Source of the DNA: an uncultured virus (IMG/VR IMGVR_UViG_3300031241_000001)
Lineage: Duplodnaviria; Heunggongvirae; Uroviricota; Caudoviricetes
Direction: 5' to 3' (one strand)
Virus record (IMG/VR): IMGVR_UViG_3300031241_000001
DNA: 64,000 bases
The notes below the pieces were generated by a model, which was given only the letters and a program-made list of their open reading frames with translations, was not told where the DNA came from and made no database searches. A program made the position numbers and the translations under genes. Below are positions 31,507 through 64,000 of the stretch, one piece after another; within the stretch, counting starts at the first letter, position 1, and every line of letters begins with the position of its first letter.

Positions 31507-31711
31507 ACTCCATGCCTGACCCCAACCCCAACGTCGGTGAGATGCCCGCTGCGCGGGCGCAGTGCCCCTGGGAGCCCGCGGCGATCGTGCGACTCCGCAT
31601 CGAGCGCGCTGCGTACGAGCGCGCGGGTCGCCCGCGGGGCTACTTCTTCCGGCAACGCGCGGATGTCGAGGCCGAGCTGGCCGAGGTCGCGCGGCGTCTC
31701 GGGAGGCCGCG

Positions 31712-44092: not shown

Positions 44093-44556
44093 ATGGAGCG
44101 GATCGTCTTGATCACCAACCTGCTCGACGTCTCTATCGACACGGGCTTCGGGAGCGTGCGCACGCCCACGAACGCGCTCGTGCTCTCTGACCGTGGGCCC
44201 AAGGACGGAACGGGGGCGCGCTACCGCATGCACGGCTTTCACAACGAGGCCGGTAATCCGACGTTCGACCTGACGCTGCCCTCGTTCGACTGGACGATCG
44301 AGGCGCAAACCTACCGGAGGTCCTTCGCGCTCTGCTTCGTCGGAAAGGTCCCGAAGATCATGCTCTCGACCGACTTCGCGAACGATCTGCCGCTCGACAT
44401 CGAGCGCATGGATCGCACGGACGTCGGATGGGCCGACGTCCTCCTGCGCAAGGTGCTTCGCTACTATCACGCGCCCTACATCGTGCTCGGGCAGCAGCTC
44501 GACGCGGATCGAGCGCGCGAGGTCCTCGGTGTCGAGAGCGTCGACGGGGCATCCCG

Positions 44557-45366
44557 ATGAGGGACCCCCTCGCGCTCTCCTACGGCATGGGCGTCGACTC
44601 GACCGCCGTGCTCGTCGGCTGGTGGCGGCGCGGCATCCGGCCGCACTGGATCGGCCACGCGCAGGTCGGCAACGAGTGGCCCGAGACCTACGCGTACCGC
44701 CCCGTCATCGACGCTTGGCTCATCCAGGTTGGCTTCCCGACGATCACCGACGTGCAGTACGTCGTGAAGCGCCCCAAGCACGGGCACTACGCGACGCTCG
44801 AGGAGAACTGCCTGGTCAACCAGACGCTGCCGTCGCTCGCGTTCGGCTACAAGAAGTGCAGCCTCAAGTGGAAGGGTGAGCCGCTCGACGCCGCGTGCGC
44901 CGACTACTTCGCCGGCCATATCAAGGCGGGCGGCAAGGTCGTCCGCGCGATCGGCTACGACGCGGGCCCGTGCGACTCGCGACGCGGTGGCGTCGAGACC
45001 CAGGGCCCGTGGACGTGGGCCTACCCCCTGCGCGAGTGGGGCTGGGACCGCGACCGCTGCGTGGAGGAGATCGCCAGGGCGGGGCTGCCGGTGCCGCCGA
45101 AGTCGGCGTGCTGGTTCTGCCCCTCCACGAAACCCGCCGAGCTGATCCAGCTCGCGCGGCGGCACCCGGACCTCGCGCGCCGCGCCGTCGAGATGGAGGA
45201 CCGGGCGCGCCCGGGGCTGACGAAGATCGAGGGCCTGTGGGGCACGGGCGTCAAGGGCACGCGCGGCGGTGAGAAGAAGCCCGGGTCGTGGCGCGTGTTC
45301 CTGACGGAGCACGCGCCGGAGGTGCTGCCGGAGCTGCCGCCGCCCGCGAAGAAGGACGCCGCGTGA
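44557..45366 (+). CDS. PAPS-reductase-like (PP-loop) protein
   Basis: LSYGMGVDSTA, KCSLKWK, IGYDAG, YPL, PPKSACWFCP. Confidence 0.75.
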   Translation: MRDPLALSYGMGVDSTAVLVGWWRRGIRPHWIGHAQVGNEWPETYAYRPVIDAWLIQVGFPTITDVQYVVKRPKHGHYATLEENCLVNQTLPSLAFGYKKCSLKWKGEPLDAACADYFAGHIKAGGKVVRAIGYDAGPCDSRRGGVETQGPWTWAYPLREWGWDRDRCVEEIARAGLPVPPKSACWFCPSTKPAELIQLARRHPDLARRAVEMEDRARPGLTKIEGLWGTGVKGTRGGEKKPGSWRVFLTEHAPEVLPELPPPAKKDAA

Positions 45367-48052: not shown

Positions 48053-48752
48053 GTCGAGACCACGACGAGGTCTCGCATCGATTGCGCCGTTCTAGCTTTC
48101 TAGCTTGTTATGCAGGTACTTCTGTCGAGACCACAGCGCGGTTTCGCATCGATCGCGCCGGGCGCCGGGCGCCGAGCGCACCGGTCCCCACTCCGAGGTC
48201 GAGACCATCGCGAGGTCTCGCATCGAGCACGCCCGCTTCCGTGTCTCCTCTACGTCGAGACGTCGAGACCATCGCGAGGTCTCGCATCTCTCGCAGCGCT
48301 TGCGCTGATCTGTGCGTCCGTGCGTCCATCCCTCTACGTCGAGACCACAGCGAGGTCGCGCATTTATCGTTACGTGCTTGTGCTTGAGCGAGAAGCGAGA
48401 ACGGTCCGGGGTCCGGGGTCCCGTGTCCTGTGTCCCGTTATCCGACGCCGACGCCGACGCCCGACGCCTTGTGGACTTTGTCGAGTGTCGAGACCCGAGA
48501 CCCCAGTGAGGTCTCGCAGCGGTGATCTTCGTGCGCACGTCGTCTTCGAGACCACCGCGAGGTCTCGCATTGATCATTGATCGCGCCAGGCACCAGGTAG
48601 CGGCTCTTCGCTCTCCGCTCTCCGTCTCCGTCGACTCAGCGATGATCCAGTCGAGACCACAGCGAGGTCTCGCATCGAGATCGCGTTGGCGAATCCACCG
48701 ATTCACCTCAAGAACGTAAGCGTTGTCGAGACCACAGCAAGGTCTCGCATCG
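48053..48752 (-). CRISPR. Decayed array remnant, ~9 B-type repeats
   Basis: Variants of gtcgagaccaccgcgaggtctcgcatcgat near 48053, 48124, 48198, 48262, 48338, 48487, 48547, 48650, 48725. Confidence 0.85.
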
Positions 48753-48781
48753 TTCGGCACTACACACTACACGGTCAAGAA

Positions 48782-51694
48782 GTCTCGGTTGTTAACCAAC
48801 CGAGCGGGTACGATCATAGGGTGTCCCTTAGAGCCTTAGACAGTGCAGTAGCTTCCTGTCTCAGCCGTCAACCGGCTGAGCAAGTGCGACCAAGGGCCTC
48901 GGGCCTCGGGCTTGTGCCCCTCGGGCCTCGGGCCTCGGGGGTCGGGGAGAATGCACGGACTCCCACTCGTCTCGGGCGTCGACCGACCGAGCAAGTCTTG
49001 CGGTTTGCGGTGTGCCGGTGTGCCGGTGTGCCGGTGTGCCGTGTGCCGTTGCTCAAGTCCCGGTCGTCAACCGGCCGAGTGACCGAGTCTCATGGCACTG
49101 CGCTGTAATCCCCTTGCTGTCTCGGTCGTCAACCGACCAAGCAGGTACTCTCGCTACATGCACATGCGCGCACTGGCACTCACTGACGTCAACCGTCCGT
49201 CTGAGCGTCTGAGCTGCAACAAGCTCAAGGCTGGTCTCGGACGTCAACCGTCCGAGCAGGCGCGATCACTCCGAAGCTCCGTAGGCATAGCTGTCTCGGA
49301 CGTCGGACGTCAACCGTTCGAGCAGGTGTCGATCATCCGCACGAGTGTCGAGTGTCGAGTGTCGAGCGCAAACTCGGGATTCTCTGTCTCGGACGTCAAC
49401 CGTCCGAGCAGGTGCGATCACCTACCAGGGTGAGAGATGGAAACAATCTCCGTCTCGGGCGTCAACCGTCCGAGCAGGTGCGATCACTCTCATAGATCAC
49501 GTGCTCCAGCCTCCAGCCTCCAGCCTCCAGCCTCCAGCCTCCAGACGTCGGATCAGGCTCGTCTCGGACGTCAACCGTCCGAGCAGGTGCGATCACCTGC
49601 CCCCCTGCCCCCCGCAGAGGCCGCAGAGGCGCAAGAACTCTCTCGCCAGTCTCGGACGTCAACCGTCCGAGCAGGTGCGATCACAGGCAGGTTCTCGCCT
49701 GGCTCCCGGCTCCCGGCTCCCGGCTCCACCTAACCAAGGTGTCTCGGACGTTAACCGTCCGAGCAGGTGCGATCACCCGCTCGCTGAGCGTGAGCGTGAG
49801 CGGCCGATCGTAGCGGGTGTCTCGGACGTCAACCGTCCGAGCAGGTGCGATCACACGCGAGCATCGGGTGGCGCTGGCCCTCTCTAAACAATGCGTCTCG
49901 GACGTCAATCGTCCGAGCAGGTGCGATCATCTTCTGGACGCACGACGACAGATTCGGGATTCGGGTTGGCCCAGTCTCGGACGTTAACCGTCCGAGCCGC
50001 ATCCCATGCGGCAGCGGCCCGATCCCTTGTCTCGGACGTCAACCGTCCGAGCAGGTGCGATCACCTCGCACGGGCGCGCGAGCCGTGAGGCCGTGAGCCG
50101 TCGATCGAGCTCAAGTCTCGGACGTCAACCGTCCGAGCAGGTGCGATCACTTGTGCGCGCGCATGCCGCGGGCGGCGGGCGGCGCGTGGTCTCGAACGTC
50201 AACCGTCCGAGCAGGTGCGATCACACGACGACGAATCAGCAGGCAAGGATAACTGCTGGTCTCGGACGTCAACCGTCCGAGCAGGTGCGATCACAGGGGA
50301 CGGACATCTTCGTGTTCGATCTTGGCACGCCTCGACCTCGAGCCACCTATAGTCTCGGACGTCAACCGTCCGAGCAGGTGCGATCACAAGCCACCCGCGA
50401 CGCCTACGCGATGGAGCGTCGAGTCTCGGACGTCAACCGTCCGAGCGTCCGAGCAGGTGCGATCACACGCGCTGTACATCGGCCCCGGCGAGAAGTTCCG
50501 GTCTCGGACGTCAACCGTCCGAGCAGGTGCGATCACACGCGACCCGTGACCCGTTGCGCGAACGCGCGAACGGAACGGCCGGCTCCTCGTCTCGGACGTC
50601 AACCGTCCGAGCAGGTGCGATCACGCTCGGCGGCCAGCTGATCAGCACGCGCGATCGCTTGTCTCGGACGTCAACCGTCCGAGCAGGTGCGATCACAATT
50701 GGCGATCAGTTGCGCGCGGCTGCGCGCTCGTCTCGGACGTCAACCATCCGAGCAGGTGCGATCACCCGCAGTTCGGGCAGGGAGCGTCCTCAAAGATCTG
50801 TCTGTCTCGGACGTCAACCGTCCGAGCAGATGCGATCACCTTCGACCGGTAGCGCGAGCGCTCGGGTACTTGTGGTCTCGGACGTCAACCGTCCGAGCAG
50901 GTGCGATCACGCGTCTCGACGGGGTAGCGCACCGAAATGGTCCGGGTCTCGGACGTCAACCGTCCGAGCAGGTGCGATCACGAGGTCAGCCGGTGTCCCA
51001 AATGCGGCGCCTTCGGGTCTCGGACGTCAACCGTCCGAGCAGGTGCGATCACTTGTGACGCATGTGCTCGCGGCTGGCAGCACTCAGTCTCGGACGTCAA
51101 CCGTCCGAGCAGGTGCGATCACAGGATCACGCGCGTCGCCTCGTTAATCAGTCCGTCGTCTCGGACGTCAACCGTCCGAGCAGGTGCGATCATGCGAGAG
51201 CCGTGCCCGTCTGAATCACGATCTCCCAGCGTCTCGGACGTCAACCGTCCGAGCAGGTGCGATCACCGGCCGGGCGAAGCTTACCCGTTCAACTATCGAG
51301 TGTGGTCTCGGACGTCAACCGTCCGAGCAGGTGCGATCACAGGTGCCGCCTTTTGCTGCGTGTACAGGCGTTGGCTGTCTCGGACGTCAACCGTCCGAGC
51401 AGGTGCGATCACTCACCCATCGGACTGGCCAGTCCCTGGAGATCGGGTCTCGGACGTCAACCGTCCGAGCAGGTGCGATCACACGTCGTGACCGATCTAG
51501 CGATGACTAATCGGTTCGTCTCGGACGTCAACCGTCCGAGCAGGTGCGATCACCCTCGGCGCTGCGCGTAGCTGGTCTGCCCGTCTAGTCTCGGACGTCA
51601 ACCGTCCGAGCAGGTGCGATCACTCGCAGCAGGCGATCCTCAAGCTGGCGCGGCCGATGTCTCGGACGTCAACCGTCCGAGCAGGTGCGATCAC
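48782..51694 (-). CRISPR. CRISPR array A: 36-bp repeat GTGATCGCACCTGCTCGGACGGTTGACGTCCGAGAC, ~33 near-consensus plus ~6 diverged copies
   Basis: Manual count 49234-51694; spacers about 33-38 nt at the right end; decay at the left end gives the orientation; 8-bp stem CTCGGACG/CGTCCGAG. Confidence 0.97.
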
Positions 51695-51843
51695 CGGAGT
51701 TTCTTATTCAGTTGTCAAAGAAGGCACTTGCATCCTTCGATGCAGGCACCGGTAGCTTTACTCCACGCTCGTGCGTGTCGCGAGGGAGGACCCCTCTGAA
51801 TGCTGCTGTACGGCCTGAGGTTTCGGGGGCGCATGAACCTCTT
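51695..51843 (-). promoter_or_regulatory. Array A leader with boxA-like antiterminator and a small hairpin
   Basis: Minus strand TTCTTTGACAACTGAATA (51705-51722), preceded by hairpin TGCATC-GAAG-GATGCA (51729-51744). Confidence 0.65.
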
Positions 51844-53781
51844 CTACGCGGCACGCCGCACCTGCGGCACCGGACCGCTCGACAAGCCGTGCCTGTGGAG
51901 GAGGTTGCGCGCGGCGTTCGCGTCCTGGTCCCAGGTCCGAATGCACGACGAGCAGGTGTGCTCGATCGAGGCTGCCGCGTCGAACGCCTCGACCGAGCCG
52001 CACCACGCGCACGCCTTGGTCGAGTCCGCGGCCTGCTCGGCCTCGACGCGGGCGCCGCGTTTGGGGGCGGCCTTGAGGATCTCGGCGCGAAGCTCGCCGG
52101 GAGCTGCAAGGCGGCTCATGCGGCGCTGCTCGCGCCCGTCGGACGGGTCGCCGTCCTCCGGCGCGGGCTGCTCCCAGCCGTCGACCTCGGTGAGCTTCAT
52201 CGAGGTGTCGTGGTTCGACCCGCTCTCGATCAGGATCGTCGCGTAGCGGGCGGTGAGCTCGGCGGCGATCACGCGCCACACCTCACGGCGGTGGGCGATC
52301 AAGCGATCGCGCTGGTGCTCCTCCCAGTTCTGGAGGTGTCGATCTTGGCGCGCCCACGCCTGGAGCACGGCGAGGATCGGACCGTCGCCGTCGATGCGGT
52401 TGGCCGTCGAGCCGAAGTCCGAAGGGTTGCACTTCTTGCCCTCGGCGCGAGCGACGCGCCAGGCGTCCCAGTCGATCCCAGTCCAAGCGTCGACGAGGGA
52501 GGCGAGCTTGCGGGGGGCGCGCCACTGCGCCAGGCTGCCGACGCGCTCGGCCATCCACGCGGGGGTCTCCCGGTCGAGCAGCCAGGCCGCGAGGCGGTCG
52601 CGCGCGGTCTCGAACTCCTTGTCGCGGATCGACGCCAGGTCGTGGACCTTGGCCATTCCCGTCAGCAGATCGTCGGGCACACGGATCTCGCGCTCGTGCC
52701 CGTGCTCGTCGACGAGGTAACCAACGCGCAGACCGACCTGCACGCCCTGGGCGTCGAACAGCCGCCGCCAGCCCAGGTCGATCGCGCAGGTCCCCTCGCC
52801 GATCGCCACCGGGCAGGCACGAAAGCGCTCGCTCTCGAGCGTGAGCTGGAACCTCCACTCGTAGTGACGGCCGACGCGCTTGCGCACGACGTACGCCCAC
52901 TTGATCACCGCGTCCTTCGGGATGGGTCGGTGGAGGGTGAGGGGGAAGCGCGCGAAGATCGGCTTCCGGTCAGGGTGGCTGCCGACGCGCAGGTCGACGT
53001 ACGTCCGTGCCGCGTGACGGCGCAGGTTGCGCGGGAGGCACGCGGCCTCCTCCCACGTGGCGCACGCTCCGACCTCGGCGCGCGGGTGCTTGTCGGCGAG
53101 ACCAGGGGTCCCCAGCCGGAGCCGGGAGTCCTGCTGCGACAGCAGCTCGCTGACGGTCATGCCGTAGATTCCCGGGGCGCCGTCGCGCGCGATGAGCTGC
53201 GTGCCGATCGATCCGGTCCCGTCGTAGCGCTCGAAGTGGAGCGGGCGCTTCGCCGTCTTGACGGCCTGCTTGACCGAGTTCTCGACGCGGTCGTAGGTGC
53301 CGGTGCGCAGTCCTCGCTCGATGAAGGCGCGGCGGGCCTCCTTGCGGCGCAGCGCCGTGAGCGCGCGCGCGGCCTCGTAGCCCGGCTGGAGCTGCGCCGC
53401 GCGAGACGCCTTGGCCTCGCGCAGCTCCGCGCCGCACAGGGCGCGGAGGTCCTTGGCGCGGGCGAGCACCTCGCGCTCCGCCGTCAGGTCCGGGGCAGCG
53501 ACGCCGGACTTCGCGGCCCGCAGGTCGTCGTAGGCGTCGTCGACGGCACCCGCCGCGTCCTCGTAGTCGCGGAGGGCCGCACCGACGATCGGATCCGCGA
53601 GCTGGACGCCGCGGAGGTCGTCCCAGAGCTTGTGCTCGATCTCGACGAGCGTGTTGCGGTACTGGTGCGCGAGGCGGAACTGCTCTTCGACGCGGTTCAC
53701 CTCGGTGATCGGAGGCAGGCAGCGGTACGAGTAGATCCGGGTCGGGACGTCGGAAGTCTTCTTCCTGGGCTGTCGCGGCAT
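51844..53781 (-). CDS. cas12m: Type V Cas12m-like (V-U1/TnpB-derived) effector A, 645 aa
   Basis: EEQFRLAHQYRNTLVEIE, long helical insert, FERYDGTGSIGTQL, LHRPIP, AIDLGWR, QWRAP, ILIES, AAPGELR, CAWC/CSSC, DQDANAARNL; adjacent array. Confidence 0.85.
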   Translation of the reverse strand: MPRQPRKKTSDVPTRIYSYRCLPPITEVNRVEEQFRLAHQYRNTLVEIEHKLWDDLRGVQLADPIVGAALRDYEDAAGAVDDAYDDLRAAKSGVAAPDLTAEREVLARAKDLRALCGAELREAKASRAAQLQPGYEAARALTALRRKEARRAFIERGLRTGTYDRVENSVKQAVKTAKRPLHFERYDGTGSIGTQLIARDGAPGIYGMTVSELLSQQDSRLRLGTPGLADKHPRAEVGACATWEEAACLPRNLRRHAARTYVDLRVGSHPDRKPIFARFPLTLHRPIPKDAVIKWAYVVRKRVGRHYEWRFQLTLESERFRACPVAIGEGTCAIDLGWRRLFDAQGVQVGLRVGYLVDEHGHEREIRVPDDLLTGMAKVHDLASIRDKEFETARDRLAAWLLDRETPAWMAERVGSLAQWRAPRKLASLVDAWTGIDWDAWRVARAEGKKCNPSDFGSTANRIDGDGPILAVLQAWARQDRHLQNWEEHQRDRLIAHRREVWRVIAAELTARYATILIESGSNHDTSMKLTEVDGWEQPAPEDGDPSDGREQRRMSRLAAPGELRAEILKAAPKRGARVEAEQAADSTKACAWCGSVEAFDAAASIEHTCSSCIRTWDQDANAARNLLHRHGLSSGPVPQVRRAA

Positions 53782-53885
53782 CCGTGAATGGCTAACAGGA
53801 TGATAGACGTTTTGCAAGGCTTCGTGACGGCGGTCCCCCTGGGACAGAGTCACTACCCCGGAGCGTACACGGCGTCCGATTCACG

Positions 53886-56800
53886 TCGAGACCACTGCGA
53901 GGTCTCGCATCGATCGCGTGATCGCCTGTTGGTCGAGGTTTCACATCGATCGTGCCGCCTTGCCGTGCCAGGTGAGCAAGCGCTTGCACACGTCGAGACC
54001 ACAGCGAGGTCTCGCATCGATCGCACCAACCTGAAATCGTCGGCGCCTTCATCCGGACGATTCGTCGGTCGGTTGAGACCACAGCGAGGTCTCGCGTCTC
54101 GCATCGATTGTGCCGAGAGTCGGCGCGGAGTTCTACGTTGACTTCTTCGGGTCGAGACCACCGCGAGGTCTCGCATCGATCAGGCCCGGCAATTTCATTG
54201 GCCGGAACTCCCAGTACCGGCTGGTCGAGACCACCGCAAGGTCTCGCATCGATCCCAGCCCAAATGTGAATCCGTCGAGACCACCGCGAGGTCTTGCATC
54301 GATCATCGATTGGGCCTCCCGCCCGCTCGCCAGCTCGCCGGGTTAGCAGTGGTCTCGACGAGCGGATCTACCGCGAGGTCTCGCATTGATCGTACCCCTT
54401 TTCCCTCGCCGTTTTCGCGGTCGTTGAGACCACTGCGCGCTGCGAGGTCTCGCAGCGATCGGGCCGAGCGGCCGAGCGGCCGAACGGAGCTGCCCCCAGC
54501 TCACGCGCTCGTAGGCTGATCGACCGGCTCGTCGAGACCGCCGCGAGGTCTCGCATCGATCGTGGCACTTCTTCGGGACCATACCCGTCACCTTGAGGAG
54601 AACTCGTCGAACCTCGTCGAGACCACCGTGGTCTCGCATCGATCGTGCCAATCGATTCGCGCAACGTCGATCGTGTCTGATTCGACGAGCTCGGGGCGAA
54701 GCGGTCGAGACCACAGCGAGGTCTCGCATCGATCATGCCTGTGGTGACGAAAAGGGCTGACAACGGTGACCTGTGGGTCGAGACCACAGCGAGGTCTCGC
54801 ATCGATCGTGCGTCGGTGACTTGCTTCGATCGTGTCTTTGTCGGGGGCTTGCGCGAAACTTGGACCATGGGCAGTCGAGACCACAGCAAGGTCTCGCATC
54901 GATCACACCTGCGAACGGCGAGCTTCACAGTCAAGACGGCGCGCATTGATCTTGGCAGGCTTCAAGTTTCAAGTCCCTCGTGCGCCTTATCGTCCGTATC
55001 GTCGCGTTCTGGTCGAGACCATCGCGAGGTCTCGCATCGATTGCACCAGGGCTGCTCTGTGCCCTGGGGGCATGCTCGGTGCTCGGCTGCTCGTCGAGAC
55101 CCCTGCAAGGTCTCGCACTGACCGGAACTGATTCGCAACCACCTGTCGAGACCACCGCAAGGTCTCGCATCGATTGTGCCGTTTGTACGTGAGGTTGATG
55201 AGGGGACGTCGAGAGTCGAGACCACCGCTCCTCATGGCAGCGTCGGGGTGGACCAACGACCAACGGTCGAGACCACCGTGAGGTCTCGCATTGATCGTGC
55301 CCCCTTCTTGGGCCAGCAGGCGTCCTCCGTCAAGTGGTCGAGACCACAGCACAGCGAGGTCTCGCATCGATCGCGCCTCGATATCGCGCGGGCGCGCGGT
55401 GGTGGCTCAATGCTCAATGTTGTCGAGACCGTAGATGACCTGCGGCATTGCGGCACATTGAGCGTGGTCGAGACCACAGCGAGGTCTCGCATCGATTGTG
55501 TCACTCGGCGATCTCGTTGTCCGTACCCCGTCGCCGCAGTCGAGACCACAGCGAGGTCTCGCATCGATTGTGCCCGACCTCGTGATTCGTGATTCGACGT
55601 GAGGATGGAGATCCCGGTGTCGAGATCTCGCGTCGATTGTGCCGTGGACGCCAAGTGGAGCGAGAGCCTTGGTAAAGCTGTCGAGACCACCGCGAGGTCT
55701 CGCATCGATCGTGCCAAGTAGGCTGCACATGAGTCGATGGCCGTTCGGCGTGTCGAGACCACCGCGAGGTCTCGCATCGATCGAGCTTGCGCACAGGTTT
55801 TCGAGACCACCGCGAGGTCTCGCATCGATCGTGCCGTGAAGACGTAGTCCCCGCGCGGCGGACTCGCATTGTCGAGACCACCGCGAGGTCTCGCATCGAT
55901 TGTGCCCGTCAGCCCAAGCACCCTGTCGCGCTGGGAGTCGAGACCACCGCGAGGTCTCGCATCGATTGTGCCGCCTAGGCGCAGGCGTCTCACCTACGCA
56001 ATCGCTAAGTCGAGACCACCGAGGTCTCGCATCGATCGTGCCGGGGGGCCGGGGATCGTCGACCGTCGGCCCAACTGCGGACAGTCTAGGCGAGACCACA
56101 GCGAGGTCTCGCATCGATCGTGCCCAGCGCTTGCTCGCTTCCTCTTCGCGCGCCGATGACGACGTGTTGCGGCGGTAACAGGTAACAGGTGCGCACCGGG
56201 TGTTTGGGTCGAGACCACAGCGAGGTCTCACATCGATTGTGCCCCGGCTAAGCTGAAGAACCGTGACCCCAAACTACGGCGAGTCGAGACCACAGCGAGG
56301 TCTCGCATTGATTGTGCCCCGTGACCAGGCTCGAGTACGTCAGCTTCAGCACCGTAGGGTCGAGACCACAGCAAGGTCTCGCATCGATTGTGCCAGCCTC
56401 AGGCTCCGCGTCCTGCTATTCCCGTTCGTCCAAGTCGAGACCAGCGCGGTCTCGCATCGATTGTGCCACGTGCCACGCGAGCCGCATCCCAGCCGTCAGG
56501 GTGTCGAGACCACCGCGAGGTCTCGCATCGATTGATTGTGACGCCGTGCAGCGCGCCAAGAATCGGGGCGATGCCAGTGTCGAGACCACCGAGGTCTCGC
56601 ATCGATTGTGCCGTACCGCCGCGAGCGCGCCTTGACCGACGTAGAGCGTGTCGAGACCACCGCGAGGTCTCGCGTCTCGCATCGATTGTGCCGCGACACT
56701 CGCCGAAGTCGACCTCCGATCCCGACCCTGTCGAGACCACCGCGAGGTCTCGCATCGATTGTGCCTCCGCACCGTGCGCTGCGCGCTTCGGTGTCGTCTG

Positions 56801-59800
56801 GTCGAGACCACCGCGAGGTCTCGCATCGATTGTGCCTGCCGGCCTGCCGGCCTGCCGGCATCGCGCCGACGTCGTGGACGTGGGCACACCCGTCGTCGAG
56901 ACCCCCGCGAGCACAGCACCGATCGTCAACTGGTCGAGACCACCGCGAGGTCTCGCATTGATTGTGACCGCTCGGGTCACCCACCATCTGCCGTGACACG
57001 ATCTTGTCGAGACCACCGCGAGGTCTCGCATCGATTGTGCCGACGGACGCGGACGTCGTCGAGAAATGTCGGCCCTTGTCGAGACCACCGCGAGGTCTCG
57101 CATCGATCATCGATCGTGCCTTGCCACGACTACGCATGTGGCTCGGCGGGTCTGCGCGTGGGGCCACACCTCGGACTGGTCGAGACCACCGCGAGGTCTC
57201 GCATCGATCATGCCGTTACCTGCTAAGACGGTAAGCAGGGAGGTCGTCGAGACCACTGCGAGGTCTCGCAGCGATCGTGCCCGTGAGGTCTCGCCCCTGC
57301 GACGTTGGGATCGGTCGTTGGTCGAGACTACCGCAAGGTCTCGCATCGATCGTGCCGCAACAGAATTCGTGACGGCGCCGATACTCGGAGCGGTCGAGAC
57401 CACCGCGAGGTCTCGCAGCGATCGTGCCCAGGCATCTATCAAGGCTACGCTTGCACGGGCGCTCGTCGAGACCACCGCAAGGTCTCGCATCGATCGTGCC
57501 CTTTGCTGTCATGTGTCCTCTTCTTCCTTCTTCCTTGCAGGTTGTCGAGACCATCGCGAGGTCTCGCATCGATCGTGCCGCGCGGTCGCGCCGTCGCGCG
57601 GGACGCGATGCTGTAGTCGAGACCACCGCGAGGTCTCGCATCGATCGTGCCGCTCGCGTAGCGAGGTGCCAACGGCGTTCTTACGAGGTCGAGACCACCG
57701 CGAGGTCTCGCATCGATCGTGCCGCCCAGGAGCGTCAGAGTGTCGACCATTTCGCCGTGTCGAGACCACCGCGAGGTCTCGCATCGATCGTGCCGTTCAA
57801 CCCGCACTCGGGCAAGCACAAGACGCTCGGTCGAGACCACCGCCGTGACGGATGAGCCTGTTGCTGTTGGGCAGGCCTACGTCGTATTGGTCGAGACCAC
57901 CGCGAGGTCTCGCATCGATCGTGCCCTGGCTGTCCTTAAGACGAGGCCCCTATGGACCGAGAGTCGAGACCACCGCGAGGTCTCGACCACATGGCTCCGG
58001 CTCTGGTCGAGACCACCGCGAGGTCTCGCATCGATCGTGCCGTCTCCACGTTCACGCCGCCCTCCCACGCGAGCCAGTCGAGACCACCGCGCGGTCTCGC
58101 ATCGATCGTGCCGTGCCACGTGCCACGTGCCACAGCAGCAGCGAGCCCAGACTAGACAGTTCGTCGAGACCACCGGGAGGTCTCGCATCGATCGTGCCAG
58201 TCGGTCGCTTGACCATGGCTAACCTCAAAAATGTGTCGAGACCACCGCGAGGTCTCGCATCGGTCGTGCCCTCGATACGGACCCGAGAAACGGAAACTGG
58301 TTTTTCAGTCGAGACCACCGCGAGGTCTCTCATCGATCGTGCCGGCCAAGTCTTCCTCGGTCGTCGAGCGCCCGCCGGCCTTGTCGAGACCGCCGCGAGG
58401 TCTCGCATCGATCGTCGATCGTGCCCTCTTGTAGACCCAGCCGTGTAGCCGATAGAGCTGCTTGTCGAGACCACCGCGAGGTCTCGCATCGATCGTGCCG
58501 TCTCGTCGCTCGCCATGCTCGCCGGCACACCGAACCCGTCGAGACCACCGCGAGGTCTCGCATCGATCGTGCTCCCAGGCGAGCGAGTCGAGGTAGTCGC
58601 GGACCGGGTGGGTCGAGACCACCGCGAGGTCTCGCATCGATCGTGCCGCACGCGGGCGCGCGCTCGGTGTCGTTGACCGTTGACCGAGGAGGTCGAGACC
58701 ACCGCGAGGTCTCGCATCGATCGTGCCGCCGTGCAATTGCGGACGGCCGATCTACTTCCGGTGGTCGAGACCACCGCGAGGTCTCGCAATCGATCGTGCC
58801 GGTCGAGAGTGCGTGACCGAAAACACGGAACCGGAGGCTGGTCGAGACCACCACGAGGTCTCGCATCGATCGTGCCGTACAGGTTCGCCGTGGTGCCCTT
58901 GGGCGCACCGTAGTCGAGACTACCACGTCATAGCGGCCGTCGAGACCACCGCGAGGTCTCGCATTGATCGTGCCGCGACCTCGTCGAGGTGCCGCTCGTC
59001 GTTCATTCTTGTCGAGACCACCGCGAGGTCTCGCATCGATCGTGCCTTGCCTAGCCGCCGAGGCGTTCGGCGACAAGACAGCGGGTCGAGACCACCGCGA
59101 GGTCTCGCATCGATCGTGCCGCGGCCGCGGCCGGGCAGGAGGGCAGGAAGTTGAACGTCGAGTCAACTTTGTCGAGACCACCGCGAGGTCTCGCATCGAT
59201 CGTGCCGAACGCCGAACACTGCTGAGCGGCAGGCGATACTCCTAGGGCAGTCGAGACCACCGCGAGGTCTCGCATCGTCGCATCGCTCGTGCCTGCAACG
59301 CGCGGTTCGCTCAGCGGGGGTTGGAGGTGGTCGAGACCACTGCGAGGTCTCGCATCGATCGTGCCCGCGACTCGTTCGTCGTTCGCCGCGTCGGCCGTAG
59401 TGCGCCGGGTCGAGACCACTGCGAGGTCTCGCATCGATCGTGCCACGCGCGCCAAGTCGGTCCAACTAAGAGCCCCAATCGTTGTCGAGACCACCGCGAG
59501 GTCTCGCATCGATCGTGCCCAGCCGACCGAATTCGCCACTGCATTTACGACGCTGTGTCGAGACCACCGAGAGGTCTCGCATCGATCGTGCCGAACGCGG
59601 GCGCGTCGGGCTCGAGTTCGTTCCATTGGTCGAGACCACCGCGAGGTCTCGCATCGATCGTGCCGCGCGCATCGTGCGGCAAGCGTGCGGCAAGCGTGCG
59701 GCATGAGCTTGTCGAGACCGCCGCGAGGTCTCGCATCGATCGTGCCTTATCGTCGGACTTGCCGATCCCGAGCTGCCCTTTTGTCGAGATCACTAGGTCT

Positions 59801-61785
59801 CACATCGATCGTGCCGGTTATGGCGCCCTCGTTGTCGCAGTGCCCGTTCTCGTCGAGACCACCGCGAGGTCTCGCATCGATCGTGCCGATCGTCGACGTG
59901 GAACGTGGAGGCGCGTTGGCGCAACCGGAAGTCGAGACCACCGCGAGGTCTCGCATCGATTGTGCCCGTCGCGCGCTCGCCCGATATCGATGAGCCCAAC
60001 GTGTCGAGACCACCGCGAGGTCTCGCATCGATCGTGCCGGGAAGTAGGCTGCACATGAGTCGATGGCCGTTCTGCGTGTCGAGACCACCGCGAGGTCTCG
60101 CATCGATCGTGCCGTCTAACGTGGCTGCTCACCGGAGCCGTGGTTCGCTGTCGAGACCACAGCGAGGTCTCGCATCGATCGTGCCTCGGGAATTCCAAGA
60201 CCTCCGTCAGCGGTTCCTCTCGTCGAGACCACAGCGAGGTCTCGCATCGATCGTGCCGGTGTCAAACGTGCGATGGAACAGGCGGAGGTTTAGGTCGAGA
60301 CCACCGCGAGGTCTCGCATCGATCGTGCCTGAACACGTTCTTGCCGTTGGCGCCTTCGCCATAATGGTCGAGACCACCGCGAGGTCTCGCATCGATCGTG
60401 CCGTTGTGCAGACACTTTGCCGTAACGACGCCGGTGTCGTCGAGACCACCGCGAGGTCTCGCATCGATCGTGCCGAACGACTCGAAGGTCGCGACATCGA
60501 CGCATCTGTCGTCGAGACCACCGCGAGGTCTCGCATCGATCGTGCCCGCGTGCGAAGCAGAGATGCCCTCGAGCAGTCGCTCGTCGAGACCACCGCGAGG
60601 TCTCGCATCGATCGTGCCGCTGCGCGACCGCGACGAAGCTCGTCGTCCTCATAGATGCTCACGTCACGTCGAGACCACCGCGAGGTCTCGCATCGATCGT
60701 GCCACAGGAGTAGACACGGATCCACGGAGGAACCAATGGGTCGAGACCACAGCGAGGTCTCGCATCGACGACGTGATCGCCCGTTGGTCGAGACCACCGC
60801 GAGGTCTCGCATCGATCGTGCCAGGTCGGGCTGGACCTTGGCAGTCGAGACCGCTGCGAGGTCTCGCATCGATCGTGCCGAAAGCGGCCGGGTCGGGCGC
60901 GGGCGCGATCTGCGCGTCGAGACCCCCGTGAGGTCTCGCGTCTCGCATCGATCGTGCTGTTCAGGATCTCAGCCGCAGCGAGCGAGGTGTCTATGTCGAG
61001 ATGTCGAGACCACCGCGAGGTCTCGCATCGATCGTGCCCAGCAACGAACCCGGGCTAGAGAGTTCGAACCCATGTCGAGAGTCGAGACCACCGCGAGGTC
61101 TCGCATCGATCGTGCCGATCGCCGCCGCGATTGAAGCAGCGCTCGTCTCTGGCGTCGAGACCACCGCGAGGTCTCGCATCGATCGTGCCTGATCTGAGCG
61201 GCCTTGTCGATCGGCTCAAGGTCGAGACCACCGCGAGGTCTCGCATCGATCGTGCCGGCTCGGACGCATGACCAAGAGCGTTACGTTCGATGTGTCGAGA
61301 CCACCGCGAGGTGCCATGACCTCACCATAGCGCGCCCGCGATCGTGCCGACGAACCCGAATTCCTCCGCCGAGGACAATCCGTAGGTGTCGAGACCACCG
61401 CGAGGTCTCGCATCGATCGTGCCGGGGCTTGGGCTCGATCCGCGCTACACGATCTCGTCGTCGAGACCACCGCGAGGTCTCGCATCGATTGTGCCCGCCT
61501 GACGGTACGCCGCCGGGGCGGAGGGCTGCGTGTCGAGACCACCGCGAGGTCTCGCATCGATTGTGCCCTCGACCGTCTCGTGCCAGCCCTTCGGGATTCG
61601 CACGTCGAGACCACCGCGAGGTCTCGCATCGATTGTGCCCACTCTCGTGGTCTCGTGGCAATACCCACTCGACGTGCGTCGAGACCACCGCGAGGTCTCG
61701 CATCGATTGTGCCGCGCCGCTTGTCCGGTGGCGACCAGGACTTCAGGATGTCGAGACCACCGCGAGGTCTCGCATCGATTGTGCC
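53886..61785 (-). CRISPR. CRISPR array B: 36-bp repeat GGCACGATCGATGCGAGACCTCGCGGTGGTCTCGAC, ~108 copies including truncated ones
   Basis: Manual count; spacers mostly 34-40 nt; more decayed at the left end; 7-bp stem CGAGACC/GGTCTCG. Confidence 0.97.
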
Positions 61786-61802
61786 TTCGATTGTCAGAGA
61801 AC
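61786..61802 (-). promoter_or_regulatory. boxA-like element abutting the first repeat of array B
   Basis: Minus strand GTTCTCTGACAATCGAA, similar to the array A leader motif. Confidence 0.55.
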
Positions 61803-61806
61803 GAAC

Positions 61807-62078
61807 CATGCTTATCCGGTTGTCACCCCTCGCGGGCGCGACGGATCTCCTTGATCTTTCGCTCGGCGCGCTTCGCAGAGGCTCGCCATTCAGCGAGAGC
61901 TTCCGTTGGGGTGAATTCTTGAATCGTTCCGCCGACGTTGATCACGGACGGTCGCTTGCCCAGAGAGGCGGAAAGAAGCTCGCCCATTTCGGAGCGGATG
62001 ATTTTAAGTTCACGTTCGAGTCGCGATGCCATTTGATGTCTCCCTGATCACGTTTGGGGTGTTAACCGGATAAGCATG
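61807..62078 (-). mobile_element. 272-bp non-autonomous single-gene insertion cassette, same family as 22591-22924
   Basis: Ends CATGCTTATCCGGTTGTCACCCC / GGGGTGTTAACCGGATAAGCATG; 8-bp direct repeat GAACGAAC at 61799-61806 and 62079-62086. Confidence 0.92.
61823..62032 (-). CDS. hypothetical 69-aa cargo protein of cassette 2
   Basis: GGGAG RBS; stop codon lies inside the inverted repeat. Confidence 0.7.
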   Translation of the reverse strand: MASRLERELKIIRSEMGELLSASLGKRPSVINVGGTIQEFTPTEALAEWRASAKRAERKIKEIRRAREG

Positions 62079-62090
62079 GAACGAACGATC

Positions 62091-64000
62091 CTACGGCGTT
62101 GCGGGGCTCGGCGCGAGCGGCTGCTGGTCCTTCCGCCGGTTCCGCCGCGCCGGGGCCTTCTTCTTCGTCGAAGGTGCCGGAACCTTGGGGTCGAGCGGCC
62201 ACCCGCTCTCGCCGCGCGCGACGGCGCTCGCGGCGGCGAGCAGGTTTCGGCTCATCGTGATGTCCTGGTCCTCGGCGTGGCCGCAGTTCTCGCAGCGGAT
62301 CACCCGCTGCACCCGGTCTTCCCGCGAGACGTCGCGGTGGTGACCGCAGGCCGCGCAGTCGAGCGTCCCACCGGCAGCGTCGACCTCCAGGTCGACGCTG
62401 CCGTACTTCTTCGCGAAGTAGCCGACGCGGGCGCGGGCGCGCCCGGGCCCCAGGATGTTCACGCGGCGCGCCGTCTTCTTGCGCAGCTTCTGCTCGTCCT
62501 CGTCGTGCTGGTCGTCCTTCTCGACGAGGCCGGTCACGTCGAAGTCGTCGCGGGCGACGACCCCGTAGCGCTTGGCCAGCTGGACCGCGACCGCGGTGAC
62601 GCGGCCCTCGACCTGGCGCTGCATGCGCTCGAGGCTCGGCACCTCGCGGTGGAGCAGGTGGACGTCCTGCTTGCTCCACGCCTCCAGCGCCGCGAAGGCC
62701 GGCTGGTCGCCGTGGATGCGCTGGTCTCGCCACTGCCGGTGCAGGCGGACGTACTTGCTGGGGGCCCGCCAGTTGTGCATGTGGCGGCTCTCTTCGCGGA
62801 GCCACGACGTCGCCGGCAGCGACCGGGCGTAGGCGAGGATCATGTCGCGGAGCACGTCCTGGTTCTGGTCGCGGATCGAATGGATCGAGTCGGCCCAGGG
62901 TTTCACACCGAGCACGTCCTCGGGGATCACGAGTTGCCCCCAGAGCGGGCTCGCGGGGTCGTTGGGGTCGAGTGGCGCGGTGGCGCTCCACGTGAGCAGG
63001 CGGATGCCCGCCTTCTTGCCCTCCTCGTCGAAGAGCTGACGCCAGCCGATGTGGACGGCGACCGCGTCGTGCGGGTGCGGGTGCGGGGTGGTCACGGCCA
63101 CGGAGCCCTCGACCTCAAGCGTGAGGTACCAGCGGTAGCGGAGCCCGGTGCGCTCGCGCCGGACCACGGCCCACTTGACGACGTCGTGCCCGAGCTGGAG
63201 GCGGTTCTTCGTGCGCGGGGACTGGTGCAGGAGCAGGTGCATCTGGGCCCAAATCGGGCGGATGGTGCCCGGCACAGTCCCGACGCGGATCGCGAGCGCG
63301 TGGAAGCGCTTGCCCTTCGTGGCGGCCTCTCCCGCGCGCGGCCCGATCTTGATGACGTCTCCCGGGTTCCCGGCGACGTCGATCGCGCGCCCCTCGGCGT
63401 CGACCGCGGCGGGTCGGAAGTGGTCGACCGGGGCACCCAGCGAGTACGCGACCGATCCGATGCGCAGCCAAGACCCTTCGCCGCCGATGAGATCGTCGGC
63501 GTAGACGGACTTCTTGGCGGGAAGTGTCTTGCCGGTCCGCGCGTCGATGCGCGCGTTCTGCCGCTGGAACTGGACGGCGATGCGGCCCACGTCCGGGGGG
63601 AAGTCCGTCCCCACGAACGTGGTCCGGCCGTTTTCGTCGATGAGCCCTGCCTTGTCGATCGTGCGCCGCGCGAAGTCGGCCGCGTCGTCCGCCTTGCCGA
63701 GCGTCCCCCACATGGCTCCCGCCTCGATCGTCGCGTCGCGCACGGCCTTGAGCGCGCGCTTCTTCCCCGCGAACACGCGCTCGCGGAGGGCCTTGAACTC
63801 GTCAGAGGCGTGCCACGCATCGCGGGCAGCTTTCCCAGCCTCCGACTTCCACCACGCGCCACGCGCTTCGACGGGTACGTCCCTGGCCGGGTAGTCGATG
63901 AGCGCGCGCCGGAGGAAGCGCTCGCGGTTCTCGATGAGCGCGATCTGTCGGCGGTAGCGCGCGCCGAGGCGCACCTGCTCGCGCAAGCAATGGTCGTCGG
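62091..64000 (-). CDS. cas12m: Type V Cas12m-like effector B, 5' end beyond the window
   Basis: REQVRLGARYRRQIALIE, GRIAVQFQ, AVHIGWR, NWRAP, ARDDFD, CAAC/CENC, DQDITMSRNL; frame is open to the window edge. Confidence 0.85.
   Translation of the reverse strand, partial: DDHCLREQVRLGARYRRQIALIENRERFLRRALIDYPARDVPVEARGAWWKSEAGKAARDAWHASDEFKALRERVFAGKKRALKAVRDATIEAGAMWGTLGKADDAADFARRTIDKAGLIDENGRTTFVGTDFPPDVGRIAVQFQRQNARIDARTGKTLPAKKSVYADDLIGGEGSWLRIGSVAYSLGAPVDHFRPAAVDAEGRAIDVAGNPGDVIKIGPRAGEAATKGKRFHALAIRVGTVPGTIRPIWAQMHLLLHQSPRTKNRLQLGHDVVKWAVVRRERTGLRYRWYLTLEVEGSVAVTTPHPHPHDAVAVHIGWRQLFDEEGKKAGIRLLTWSATAPLDPNDPASPLWGQLVIPEDVLGVKPWADSIHSIRDQNQDVLRDMILAYARSLPATSWLREESRHMHNWRAPSKYVRLHRQWRDQRIHGDQPAFAALEAWSKQDVHLLHREVPSLERMQRQVEGRVTAVAVQLAKRYGVVARDDFDVTGLVEKDDQHDEDEQKLRKKTARRVNILGPGRARARVGYFAKKYGSVDLEVDAAGGTLDCAACGHHRDVSREDRVQRVIRCENCGHAEDQDITMSRNLLAAASAVARGESGWPLDPKVPAPSTKKKAPARRNRRKDQQPLAPSPATP

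What the first reader, a model, noticed from the sequence alone, without database searches (positions are those of the whole stretch)
48053..64000. Tandem, nested pair of miniature Cas12m-like CRISPR systems on a phage-like replicon
Seen: on the minus strand, effector B, ~108 B repeats, effector A, ~39 A repeats, then ~9 more decayed B repeats only ~29 nt past the last A-type copy. The two repeats differ in sequence but share one geometry: 13-nt tail ending TG, 21-nt hairpin, 3' AC. No cas1/cas2/cas4 or tracrRNA candidate is visible. Known: Cas12m is a TnpB-derived, tracrRNA-independent effector, usually without an adaptation module. Inference: module A inserted into the old end of array B, or the locus duplicated and switched repeats, giving two orthogonal guide systems that acquired ~150 spacers in trans.
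Basis: partly seen in the sequence, partly recalled or inferred. Interest (0 to 1): 0.92.

Follow-up and report, generated by a model that had tools for sequence, protein, structure and literature searches.

The report
Two nested Cas12m CRISPR systems, giant arrays
A 461-kb phage-like element from soil carries two different small DNA-binding CRISPR systems (Cas12m type), one sitting inside the old end of the other's array, with about 150 spacers in all and no spacer-acquisition genes nearby.

Summary
On the minus strand lie effector B (651 aa, start 46 nt beyond the window), 108 B repeats, effector A (645 aa), 37-39 A repeats, then 9 decayed B repeats 22 nt after the last A repeat. Both proteins are Cas12m (type V-M) family members by sequence, profile and, for B, fold. 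Both repeats keep the family's guide-RNA handle (G, 21-nt hairpin, AC), and the hairpin shows compensatory changes. A has a D-E-D RuvC triad and B has H-D-D. Trees and AU tests reject A and B as a local duplicate pair, and reject one origin for B's H-D-D and the H-D-D of a Cas12m2-like plasmid protein. The decay gradient and a shared loop variant link the B tail to the distal B array, so insertion of module A into array B is favoured. No cas1, cas2, cas4 or anti-repeat was found in the 72 kb I could read. The other ~389 kb of the contig was out of reach. No spacer target was found, so targets, PAM, orthogonality and acquisition in trans remain inferences. Phage identity is likely but unproven. 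This scan has already noted phage-borne Cas12m loci in at least 15 other genomes, and papers report them too. The nesting, array size and convergent triad are what is new.

The parts
62091..64000 (-). Effector B gene (Cas12m-like, H-D-D RuvC triad). Partial in the window: the full gene is 651 aa and its start codon lies 46 nt beyond the window end.
   Evidence: ORF and GC3 0.93. Full length from L003:15359-17311. PDB 23vw Cas12m E 1.2e-25. PADLOC Cas12u1 1.5e-38. Foldseek top hits Cas12m2 8hhl 1.6e-24 and GoCas12m 8pm4 7.8e-23. Triad from alignment.
61785..62090 (-). Leader of array B (306 nt, GC 0.55). Contains a possible 69-aa ORF at 61823-62032.
   Evidence: Sequence read. The ORF has a GGGAG motif upstream but GC3 of only 0.64. 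No Pfam-type or PADLOC hit. Status uncertain.
53884..61784 (-). Array B, main part: 108 repeat cores. Consensus GGCACGATCGATG|CGAGACC-TCGCGGT-GGTCTCG|AC. Spacers are 36 nt when intact.
   Evidence: Decay gradient. Blocks of repeat variants.
51844..53781 (-). Effector A gene (Cas12m, D-E-D triad), 645 aa from the ATG at 53781. An in-frame GTG at 53853 is also open.
   Evidence: P0012, 100% identical over 645 aa. PDB 23vw Cas12m E 1.2e-64 and Cas12m2 9e-26. PADLOC Cas12u1 8.8e-89 over the full profile.
51695..51843 (-). Leader of array A (149 nt). No similarity to leader B beyond 8-nt words.
48782..51694 (-). Array A: 37 clear repeats plus about 2 heavily decayed ones. Consensus GTGATCGCACCTG|CTCGGACG-GTTGA-CGTCCGAG|AC. 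The distal copies carry compensatory stem changes.
48052..48759 (-). Tail of 9 decayed B-type repeats, read as the severed old end of array B.
   Evidence: Mean 5.7 mismatches to the B consensus. GCTGTGG loop variant in 4 of 9.

Best explanation
These are two separate, intact type V-M (Cas12m) CRISPR systems on one strand of a 461-kb extrachromosomal element, probably a huge phage. System B is effector B, a 306-nt leader and 108 repeats. System A is effector A, a 149-nt leader and 37-39 repeats. System A sits inside the decayed, leader-distal end of array B, which leaves 9 B repeats stranded downstream.

Inferred mechanism, taken from characterised Cas12m proteins:
- Each array is transcribed from its leader.
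- Each effector grips the 3' part of its own repeat (G, hairpin, AC) and trims the pre-crRNA upstream of the hairpin without using RuvC.
- It then uses the roughly 36-nt guide to bind PAM-flanked double-stranded DNA without cutting it. This blocks transcription or replication of the target, most likely rival phages or plasmids in the same host.

The arrays grew one unit at a time at the leader end and decay at the far end. Whatever inserts the spacers is not encoded in the 72 kb seen.

Shown: the anatomy, family membership, hairpin conservation, polar growth and decay, and the separate ancestry of A and B. Inferred: binding without cleavage, self-processing, orthogonality, targets, acquisition in trans, and phage identity.
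For: Family. A matches PDB 23vw 'Cas12m' at 1.2e-64 and Cas12m2 at 9e-26. B matches 23vw at 1.2e-25. Both have PADLOC Cas12u1 (V-U1, the old name of V-M) as best or joint-best model, at 8.8e-89 and 1.5e-38. The AF2 model of B (pLDDT 77.5) matches Cas12m2 and GoCas12m at about 1e-23, against about 1e-10 for Cas12f and TnpB.

Guide handle. Across 17 repeats from A, B, an IMG/VR relative, phage Rctr197k and the P. propionicus plasmid, G13, C14, G34, A35 and C36 are invariant. 96.6% of hairpin cells pair and 6 of 7 pairs show compensatory changes, against 15-45% pairing in slid controls. This matches the G(-23):A(-2) pair and C(-1) read by Cas12m2 (PMC10442227, passages). Within the arrays the 5' tail mutates far more than the stem: 11.9% against 0.8% for the B 5' stem, and 10.2% against 3.0% in A.

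Polar growth. A repeat variant (A at position 5) comes in blocks: 5 of units 1-12, 2 of units 13-60, and 14 of units 61-84.

Decay. Mismatches rise with unit index (Spearman 0.56, p 1.6e-9; 0.61 with the tail included).

Separate ancestry. B nests among D-E-D proteins in a group that excludes A and the known Cas12m references (100 SH-like support).

Intact genes. GC3 is 0.91 and 0.93. The zinc-finger cysteines and the DQD motif are invariant in 37-38-row alignments.

Function of relatives. D-E-D, H-D-D and N-D-D Cas12m proteins all bind but do not cut. There is no tracrRNA, and processing is RuvC-independent (PMC11013384, passages).

Other records. Four contigs of other samples are 100% identical to parts of the B array. 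14 of 24 listed DNA runs hold at least half of the sampled words.
Against: - No protospacer was found, so there is no PAM and no target class.
- There are no RNA data.
- No adaptation genes were seen, yet about 150 spacers exist, and about 389 kb of the contig could not be read.
- Much of both arrays is eroded. Only 33 of the first 60 and 12 of the last 39 B spacers are 35-38 nt, so part of the locus may be inert.
- B has Q where Cas12m2 and A have the crRNA-contacting Arg (HQ against HR). B's first ~270 residues match no solved Cas12m by sequence.
- No phage structural gene lies in the 72 kb.
- The groups for the AU tests were named after the tree had been seen.
Confidence: 0.75

Rival explanations
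1. Division of labour: effector A (intact D-E-D) is an active RNA-guided nuclease and effector B (H-D-D) only binds, so the pair is a cutter plus a silencer.
For: A keeps all three canonical RuvC residues, as do 80 of 115 aligned relatives. Omura et al. raise the possibility that D-E-D clades may cut (PMC10442227, passages). 34 of 143 spacers carry 6-14-nt tandem duplications, mostly 7-8 nt. These could in principle be fill-in scars of staggered cuts.
Against: The D-E-D Cas12m proteins that were tested did not cut DNA (PMC11013384, passages). The duplications have no fixed position within spacers and reach 3-6 copies, which looks like slippage. 19 of 115 relatives have lost the triad (N-G-D), which suggests RuvC chemistry is dispensable in this clade.
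Confidence: 0.13
2. Local duplication: one ancestral effector-array module duplicated in place, and the copies then diverged in protein and repeat.
For: The modules are tandem, on the same strand, with the same architecture and the same repeat geometry. With sparse sampling A and B came out as sister clades (support 94).
Against: With 1.84 billion representatives searched, B's nearest relatives are a separate D-E-D group at 33-41% identity (E 1e-74 to 1e-44). A-family representatives score only about 1e-27 to 1e-29. The AU test rejects A and B as exclusive sisters (delta lnL 195, p 3e-51). The leaders are unrelated. B repeats flank module A on both sides.
Confidence: 0.04
3. Relic: the locus is a decaying remnant that no longer functions.
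For: Spacing is irregular and many repeats are truncated or internally duplicated. 34 of 143 spacers hold tandem duplications, against 6.55 +/- 2.44 in controls. No targets were found.
Against: Both genes are full-length with strong coding signal and conserved motifs. The leader-proximal units are clean: A units 1-16 have mean 0.1-0.2 mismatches and 15 of 16 spacers of 33-38 nt. The hairpin is preserved even in old units.
Confidence: 0.06
4. Assembly artefact: the nesting is a false join at CRISPR repeats.
For: Arrays break short-read assemblies. The four other contigs stop inside array B and none spans 48.76 kb or 53.87 kb.
Against: The A and B repeats share no long word that could cause a false A/B join at 48.76 kb. 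The window and contig Ga0265316_10000001 are different records: they differ by one 6-bp duplication at 59128, yet agree across both junctions. Any arrangement must still put a B repeat next to the A gene's upstream side and next to the end of array A.
Confidence: 0.02
5. Replicon rival, compatible with the main reading: the 461-kb element is a megaplasmid or other extrachromosomal element and not a phage.
For: No capsid, portal, terminase or tail gene in 90 ORFs. Known Cas12m loci sit mostly on plasmids: 14 plasmid records against 1 phage record. Al-Shayeb et al. note large putative plasmids with similar translation genes (PMC7162821, passage).
Against: The 505-aa ORF at 8246-9760 has its only match among 50,697 phage records in a 485-kb 'uncultured phage' (47% identity, 5e-123). 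The ATP-grasp ORF matches jumbo phages of 206-357 kb. The window also holds an IF3 gene, an RNA-ligase PHROG and three phrog_424 paralogs. An A-family homologue sits beside phage replication genes on an IMG/VR contig.
Confidence: 0.3

Closest known systems
Type V-M CRISPR-Cas12m (MmCas12m/Cas12m2, PDB 8HHL; GoCas12m, 8PM4; MsCas12m; PDB 23vw)
   Same: Effector size of about 600-650 aa. RuvC split by a CxxC...CxxC TNB zinc finger. 36-nt repeats with G-hairpin-AC at the 3' end. No tracrRNA candidate and no adaptation genes in the locus. RuvC triads within the family's known set (D-E-D, H-D-D).
   Different: Two divergent systems (27% identity) are nested in one locus. The arrays have 108+9 and 37-39 repeats, against 4 in P. 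propionicus and 17 in Rctr197k. B's H-D-D arose separately from the Cas12m2-type H-D-D. B has HQ in place of the HR crRNA-contact pair. Both belong to clades known only from metagenomes: the best species-genome relative is 33% identical.
Phage-borne Cas12m loci: myxophage MV-1 (bioRxiv 10.64898/2026.09.14.751636) and Virus Rctr197k (KX853510)
   Same: A Cas12m effector followed by an array, no cas1, cas2 or cas4, no tracrRNA, and no spacer targets found. Same repeat geometry.
   Different: MV-1 has one effector and 8 spacers (passages). Rctr197k has one effector, annotated 'similar to transposase', and 17 repeats. Here there are two effectors and about 150 spacers.
CRISPR systems of huge phages (Al-Shayeb et al. 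2020, PMC7162821)
   Same: An element over 200 kb, type V-U variants reported in phages, and acquisition genes almost always missing (passages).
   Different: That paper gives a median of six repeats per phage array. Array B here has 108 in one run.
IS200/IS605 TnpB with omegaRNA
   Same: A shared RuvC-TNB core: PF07282 hits at 2.4e-07 and 6.5e-08.
   Different: Scores of 31 and 41 bits against the NCBIfam guided_TnpB cut-off of 100. Arrays with many spacers take the place of a single omegaRNA. No TnpA or IS ends are present. The fold is closer to Cas12m by about 14 orders of E-value.

Membership tests
Type V-M CRISPR-Cas12m | Effector homologous to Cas12m over most of its length | tested here: met
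   A: 23vw 1.2e-64 (residues 41-652, two stretches); PADLOC Cas12u1 8.8e-89 over profile positions 3-529 of 533. B: 23vw 1.2e-25 (residues 272-590); Cas12u1 1.5e-38; Foldseek top four hits are all Cas12m structures. B's N-terminal ~270 residues are supported by fold only.
Type V-M CRISPR-Cas12m | RuvC domain interrupted by a zinc-finger TNB domain | tested here: met
   PF07282 above its cut-off in both (31.2 and 33.1 bits against 26.3). Four cysteines and the DQD motif are invariant in the alignments.
Type V-M CRISPR-Cas12m | Adjacent CRISPR array whose repeat ends in G-hairpin-AC, the crRNA handle | tested here: met
   Compared with the Cas12m2 crRNA description in PMC10442227.
Type V-M CRISPR-Cas12m | No tracrRNA | tested here: met
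   No anti-repeat in leaders or flanks. Best matches are 12-13 nt perfect, or 18 nt with one mismatch inside a coding sequence. This is sequence level only; the RNA was not examined.
Type V-M CRISPR-Cas12m | Locus lacks cas1, cas2 and cas4 | tested here: met
   0 of 90 ORFs in 72 kb. The rest of the contig was not readable.
Type V-M CRISPR-Cas12m | PAM-dependent dsDNA binding without cleavage | not testable with these tools
   Inferred from tested D-E-D, H-D-D and N-D-D orthologues (PMC11013384).
Type V-M CRISPR-Cas12m | Effector processes its own pre-crRNA | not testable with these tools
   Inferred from the literature. No RNA run was listed.
IS200/IS605 TnpB-omegaRNA | Reaches the TnpB family threshold and lies in an IS element with a single guide RNA | tested here: not met
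   31.4 and 40.8 bits against cut-off 100; IS200_TnpB 17-19 bits against 425. Multi-spacer arrays are present instead.
Huge (jumbo/mega) phage | Genome over 200 kb | tested here: met
   Contig length 461,400 bp as listed. Completeness unknown.
Huge (jumbo/mega) phage | Virion hallmark genes (major capsid, portal, terminase) | tested here: inconclusive
   None among 90 ORFs of the 72 kb seen. 389 kb unseen.
Huge (jumbo/mega) phage | Genes shared with known huge phages | tested here: met
   ORF 8246-9760 is 47% identical to LR745208.1 (485 kb). The ATP-grasp ORF matches jumbo phages. However, only 1 of 84 window ORFs matched the 40-kb stretch of LR745208.1 that was fetched.

The most novel reading that the evidence does not exclude
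A huge phage, possibly of Myxococcota, keeps two mutually orthogonal, non-cutting Cas12m silencers with different active-site chemistry (D-E-D and a convergently evolved H-D-D). It has built the largest phage-borne spacer stores yet seen (about 150) by a route that needs no locus-encoded Cas1-Cas2: either hijacked host machinery acting on two unrelated repeats, or an unknown acquisition mechanism. The worn B repeats directly upstream of gene A might also let system B control expression of system A.
Probability: 0.2. Interest if true: 0.8.

Novelty: new variant of a known kind. Interest (0 to 1): 0.55.

Why it matters
Cas12m is a compact DNA binder already used for base and epigenome editing. 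Two natural, divergent Cas12m systems side by side, with different hairpins, would be a ready-made candidate pair of non-interfering programmable repressors.

For biology, arrays of more than 100 units without local acquisition genes sharpen an open question: how do mobile-element CRISPR arrays gain spacers? The block pattern of repeat variants shows ordered growth at the leader end, so some machinery must recognise two unrelated leaders and repeats.

The independent D-E-D to H-D-D change in the B lineage suggests repeated selection for the single-metal, DNA-holding active site described for Cas12m2.

The A family has more than 100 members, many on contigs of 240-461 kb, and none is closer than 33% identity in 185,579 species genomes. 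This points to a large reservoir of Cas12m on giant mobile elements.

Tried and rejected
- The window's own genome is not held, and the 461-kb contig could not be searched whole. Cas1, Cas2 and capsid genes elsewhere on it are therefore unknown.
No read-level check of the junctions was possible.
- No RNA holder was listed among 24 runs.
- Spacer targets, all negative:
  - No match of either array in 50,697 phage records.
  - No self-match above 16-22 nt in 72 kb.
  - Two exact spacer cores are absent from IMG/VR.
  - Plasmid hits were one marginal match for array B (E 0.05), and tandem-repeat or marginal matches for array A (best E 2e-3, the rest 0.02-0.08).
  - No spacer hit in five genomes of the phylum holding the best IF3 matches.
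- Single-protein and repeat searches of IMG/VR found nothing. A B-family profile also found nothing there.
- The promoter/terminator scan was at chance level: 1 promoter-like site against 1.4 expected.
- No tRNA and no Rfam family in the window.
- No solitary repeat cores outside the arrays.
- The 40-kb stretch of huge phage LR745208.1 shares only one ORF with the window.
- The first tree, which put A and B as sisters, was overturned by wider sampling.
- Complex prediction, the second structure job and the protein atlas were not used.
Full report
**What is there**

The scan found the two repeat families only between 48.05 and 61.78 kb. Read on the minus strand, the order is:
- effector B (62091 to beyond the window end);
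- a 306-nt leader;
- array B (61784 to 53884);
- effector A (53781 or 53853 to 51844);
- a 149-nt leader;
- array A (51694 to 48782);
- 22 nt;
- nine decayed B-type repeats (48759 to 48052).

Counting the 3' hairpin core at up to 2 mismatches gives 108, 37 and 9 copies. Full-length matching at up to 12 mismatches gives 100, 37 and 9. The difference is made up of truncated units that keep only the hairpin. Both genes have the strong third-position GC of real genes in this 67% GC sequence (0.91 and 0.93).

**Source record**

A pattern search placed the window on metagenome contig Ga0265316_10000001 (461,400 bp). The stored stretch L003 equals window 46730-64000 except for one 6-bp tandem duplication in a spacer at 59128. 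The window therefore comes from a different record of the same element. L003 adds 7.8 kb beyond the window and gives the full 651-aa effector B.

**What the proteins are**

- Effector A matches solved Cas12m structures by sequence: 23vw at 1.2e-64, Cas12m2 at 9e-26 and 'UnCas12m4a' at 8e-21.
- A also covers the whole PADLOC Cas12u1 profile at 8.8e-89.
- Effector B is more distant: 23vw at 1.2e-25 over residues 272-590 and Cas12u1 at 1.5e-38.
- An AlphaFold model of B built on 38 sequences (mean pLDDT 77.5) has Cas12m2 and GoCas12m as its four best Foldseek matches (1.6e-24 to 8e-22). Cas12f, Fanzor and TnpB follow at 1e-10 to 1e-8. TM-scores are low (0.35-0.43), as expected for a flexible multi-domain protein.
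- Both proteins fall far below the NCBIfam TnpB cut-offs.
- A and B share 27% identity over 393 residues.

**The repeats**

Both repeats are 36 nt: a 13-nt tail ending in G, a 21-nt hairpin, then AC. I aligned 17 repeats: A, B, their decayed variants, an IMG/VR relative (L021), phage Rctr197k and the P. propionicus plasmid. In that alignment G13, C14, G34, A35 and C36 never change. The stem pairs in 96.6% of cells, and 6 of 7 pairs show compensatory changes. Slid controls pair in 15-45% of cells.

This is the handle described for Cas12m2: a non-canonical G(-23):A(-2) pair and a base-read C(-1) flanking the stem-loop (PMC10442227, passages seen). Inside the arrays the tail decays much faster than the stem, as expected if only the 3' part survives in the mature guide.

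**Active sites**

In a 115-row alignment, A has D-E-D. B and six close relatives have H-D-D. P0011, the earliest-branching member of the B clade (51-53% identity), has D-E-D. H-D-D is the non-canonical triad of Cas12m2, which holds one magnesium ion and grips the non-target strand instead of cutting it.

In the same alignment A keeps the HR pair that contacts the crRNA in Cas12m2, and B has HQ.

Bigelyte et al. report the following (PMC11013384, passages seen):
- D-E-D, H-D-D and N-D-D Cas12m proteins all bind DNA but do not cut it.
- No tracrRNA exists.
- Pre-crRNA processing does not need RuvC.
- V-U systems typically lack acquisition genes.

**Ancestry**

The word-based protein search found 109 relatives of A (26-100% identity) and 8 of B. 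All come from metagenomes, many on contigs of 240-461 kb. With only these rows, A and B looked like sister clades.

The exhaustive search then found a separate group of about 25 proteins closer to B (33-41% identity, 1e-74 to 1e-44) than any A-family member (about 1e-27 to 1e-29). One of that group, P0127, matches all four solved Cas12m sequences.

In the wider tree, B nests inside this D-E-D group. A sits on the other side of a fully supported split together with the A. silvanus, P. propionicus and M. intracellulare plasmid proteins and phage Rctr197k. AU tests reject 'A and B are exclusive sisters' (delta lnL 195, p 3e-51). They also reject 'all H-D-D proteins form one clade' (delta lnL 143, p 9e-10). 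The groups were named after the tree had been seen, and the tests used LG+G4 on 38 rows.

It follows that the pair is not a local duplication, and that B's H-D-D is convergent with the Cas12m2 type.

**Nesting**

- Mismatches to the B consensus rise with distance from the leader: means of 0.7-1.8 for units 1-60, 2.7-5.3 for units 61-100, and 5.7 in the tail (Spearman 0.56, or 0.61 with the tail included).
- The loop variant GCTGTGG occurs in 3 of the first 60 units, 12 of the last 40, and 4 of 9 tail units.
- Array A has its own decayed far end (mean 7.0 mismatches in units 33-37), with stems kept by compensatory changes.

Module A, already carrying an aged array, most likely entered the old end of array B.

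A false join is unlikely. The A and B repeats share no long word, and two distinct records agree across both junctions. The read-level test could not be run.

A B-type homologue (P0008, 70% identity) and an A-type homologue (P0031, 62% identity) are each recorded on a contig of exactly 332,853 bp. The pairing may therefore be older than this element. I could not fetch that contig.

**Growth and decay of the arrays**

A repeat variant (A at tail position 5) marks units 1-5. It is nearly absent from units 13-60 (2 of 48) and returns in units 61-84 (14 of 24). Blocks like this are what copying of the first repeat at each leader-end acquisition produces.

Intact spacers are 36 nt (B) and 33-38 nt (A). 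15 of the first 16 A spacers are intact, against 3 of the last 20.

Many longer spacers are explained by perfect tandem duplications. 34 of 143 spacers hold one with a unit of at least 6 nt, against 6.55 +/- 2.44 (maximum 17) in 300 length-matched samples of the coding part of the window. Of the 42 duplications, units of 7 nt (22) and 8 nt (10) dominate, and some reach 3-6 copies. The 6-bp difference between the two records is one more such event.

Spacer GC is 0.65, close to the element's 0.67.

**What was not found**

- No Cas1, Cas2 or Cas4 in 90 ORFs.
- No anti-repeat.
- No Rfam family or tRNA.
- No spacer target in phage records, plasmid records, two IMG/VR probes, the local 72 kb or five genomes.

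**Context**

Most of the 82 ORFs upstream are small and match nothing. The exceptions are:
- a full IF3 gene;
- an RNA ligase PHROG;
- a Mg-chelatase-like ATPase;
- three PAPS-reductase-like paralogs (phrog_424);
- an R2K ATP-grasp protein;
- beyond the window, an SF2 helicase and a sigma-70 factor.

The 505-aa ORF at 8246-9760 has a single match among 50,697 phage records, in a 485-kb uncultured phage (47% identity). The ATP-grasp ORF matches jumbo phages. An A-family homologue (50% identity) lies next to phage replication genes on a 95-kb IMG/VR contig, followed by at least 22 repeats of the same geometry. No virion gene was seen. I put phage at about 0.65-0.7.

**Host hints**

A CarS-type SH3 domain was found at 22227-22499 (8.4e-08). 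The IF3 protein is 68% identical over its full length to two genomes of the phylum that holds a Polyangiaceae MAG. In that phylum 3 of 201 genomes matched at E <= 1e-73. In the phylum of an Acidobacteria MAG, 0 of 121 matched at E <= 1e-68. Only two phyla were sampled in depth.

**Comparison and novelty**

- Cas12m is well characterised.
- Type V-U variants in huge phages were reported in 2020, with a median of six repeats per phage array (PMC7162821, passages).
- A 2026 preprint calls its 8-spacer myxophage locus the first phage Cas12m (passages).
- GenBank phage Rctr197k already holds an unrecognised one with 17 repeats.
- This scan has noted such loci in at least 15 other genomes. None of the 8 notes shown describes a nested pair or arrays of this size.

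My paper searches for 'Cas12m' (88 papers, 25 listed) and for 'virus-encoded CRISPR' with 'V-U1' (5 papers) turned up no nested dual locus. Supplementary tables of those papers were not opened, and they may list this contig or its relatives.

The kind is therefore known. The nested pair, the array size, the convergent triad and the metagenome-only clades make this a new variant of it.

Noticed in passing
window 48052-61784 (e.g. 49504-49544, 49701-49727, 58112-58161): Spacers, and some repeats, carry perfect tandem duplications, mostly of 7-8 nt and up to 6 copies. 34 of 143 spacers are affected, against 6.55 +/- 2.44 in controls. Their positions within spacers are not fixed. The mutational process behind the 7-8-nt preference is unexplained.
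   Followed up: yes
window 59128: The window differs from contig Ga0265316_10000001 by a single 6-bp tandem duplication (CGCGGC) inside a spacer, and by nothing else over 17.3 kb. The slippage seems to be ongoing in the population.
   Followed up: yes
window 61823-62032 (-): A 69-aa ORF with a GGGAG motif upstream lies between effector B and its array. GC3 is only 0.64 and there is no family hit. Module A has no counterpart.
   Followed up: partly
window 60038-60076 and 55715-55750: Two B spacers share an identical 31-nt core. This means either the same target was acquired twice or there was a small internal duplication. The core has no exact match in IMG/VR.
   Followed up: partly
window 23976-24716 (-) and 22227-22499 (+): A full-length IF3 with a C-terminal extension is 68% identical to two genomes of the phylum of a Polyangiaceae MAG. 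A CarS-type SH3 domain protein lies nearby. Together these hint at a Myxococcota host. Only two phyla were sampled in depth.
   Followed up: partly
window 19894-21099, 31562-32692, 44428-45363 (+): Three PAPS-reductase-like paralogs (phrog_424, E 3.5e-25 to 1.8e-20). The third also matches the PADLOC SspD model at 2.8e-08.
   Followed up: no
window 8246-9760 (-): A 505-aa ORF of unknown function is 47% identical (5e-123) to one place in the 485-kb uncultured phage LR745208.1. That is its only match among 50,697 phage records.
   Followed up: partly
L003:18923-20323 and L003:23150-24859 (beyond the window end): An SF2 helicase (ResIII/Helicase_C; PADLOC type IV restriction-like, 5.5e-30) and a 570-aa sigma-70 factor follow effector B on the opposite strand.
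   Followed up: no
A-family homologues (P0050, P0054-P0056, P0061, P0064, P0072; L021): 19 of 115 aligned relatives have N-G-D in place of D-E-D, including the IMG/VR contig L021. One 410,486-bp contig length is shared by an N-G-D protein (P0072) and a D-E-D protein (P0108). Pairs of Cas12m genes on one giant element may be common.
   Followed up: partly
L009 (KX853510.1, Virus Rctr197k) 3950-7415: A GenBank Caudoviricetes record annotates a Cas12m-like gene as a misc_feature, 'similar to transposase'. It is 29% identical to A and has a D-E-D triad. It is followed by an annotated CRISPR region with 17 repeats of the Cas12m geometry.
   Followed up: partly
L021 11954-13377 (IMGVR_UViG_3300036768_000843): The related viral contig's array alternates spacers of about 24 nt and about 37 nt (periods 50-61 and 68-78) and runs to the contig end.
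   Followed up: no
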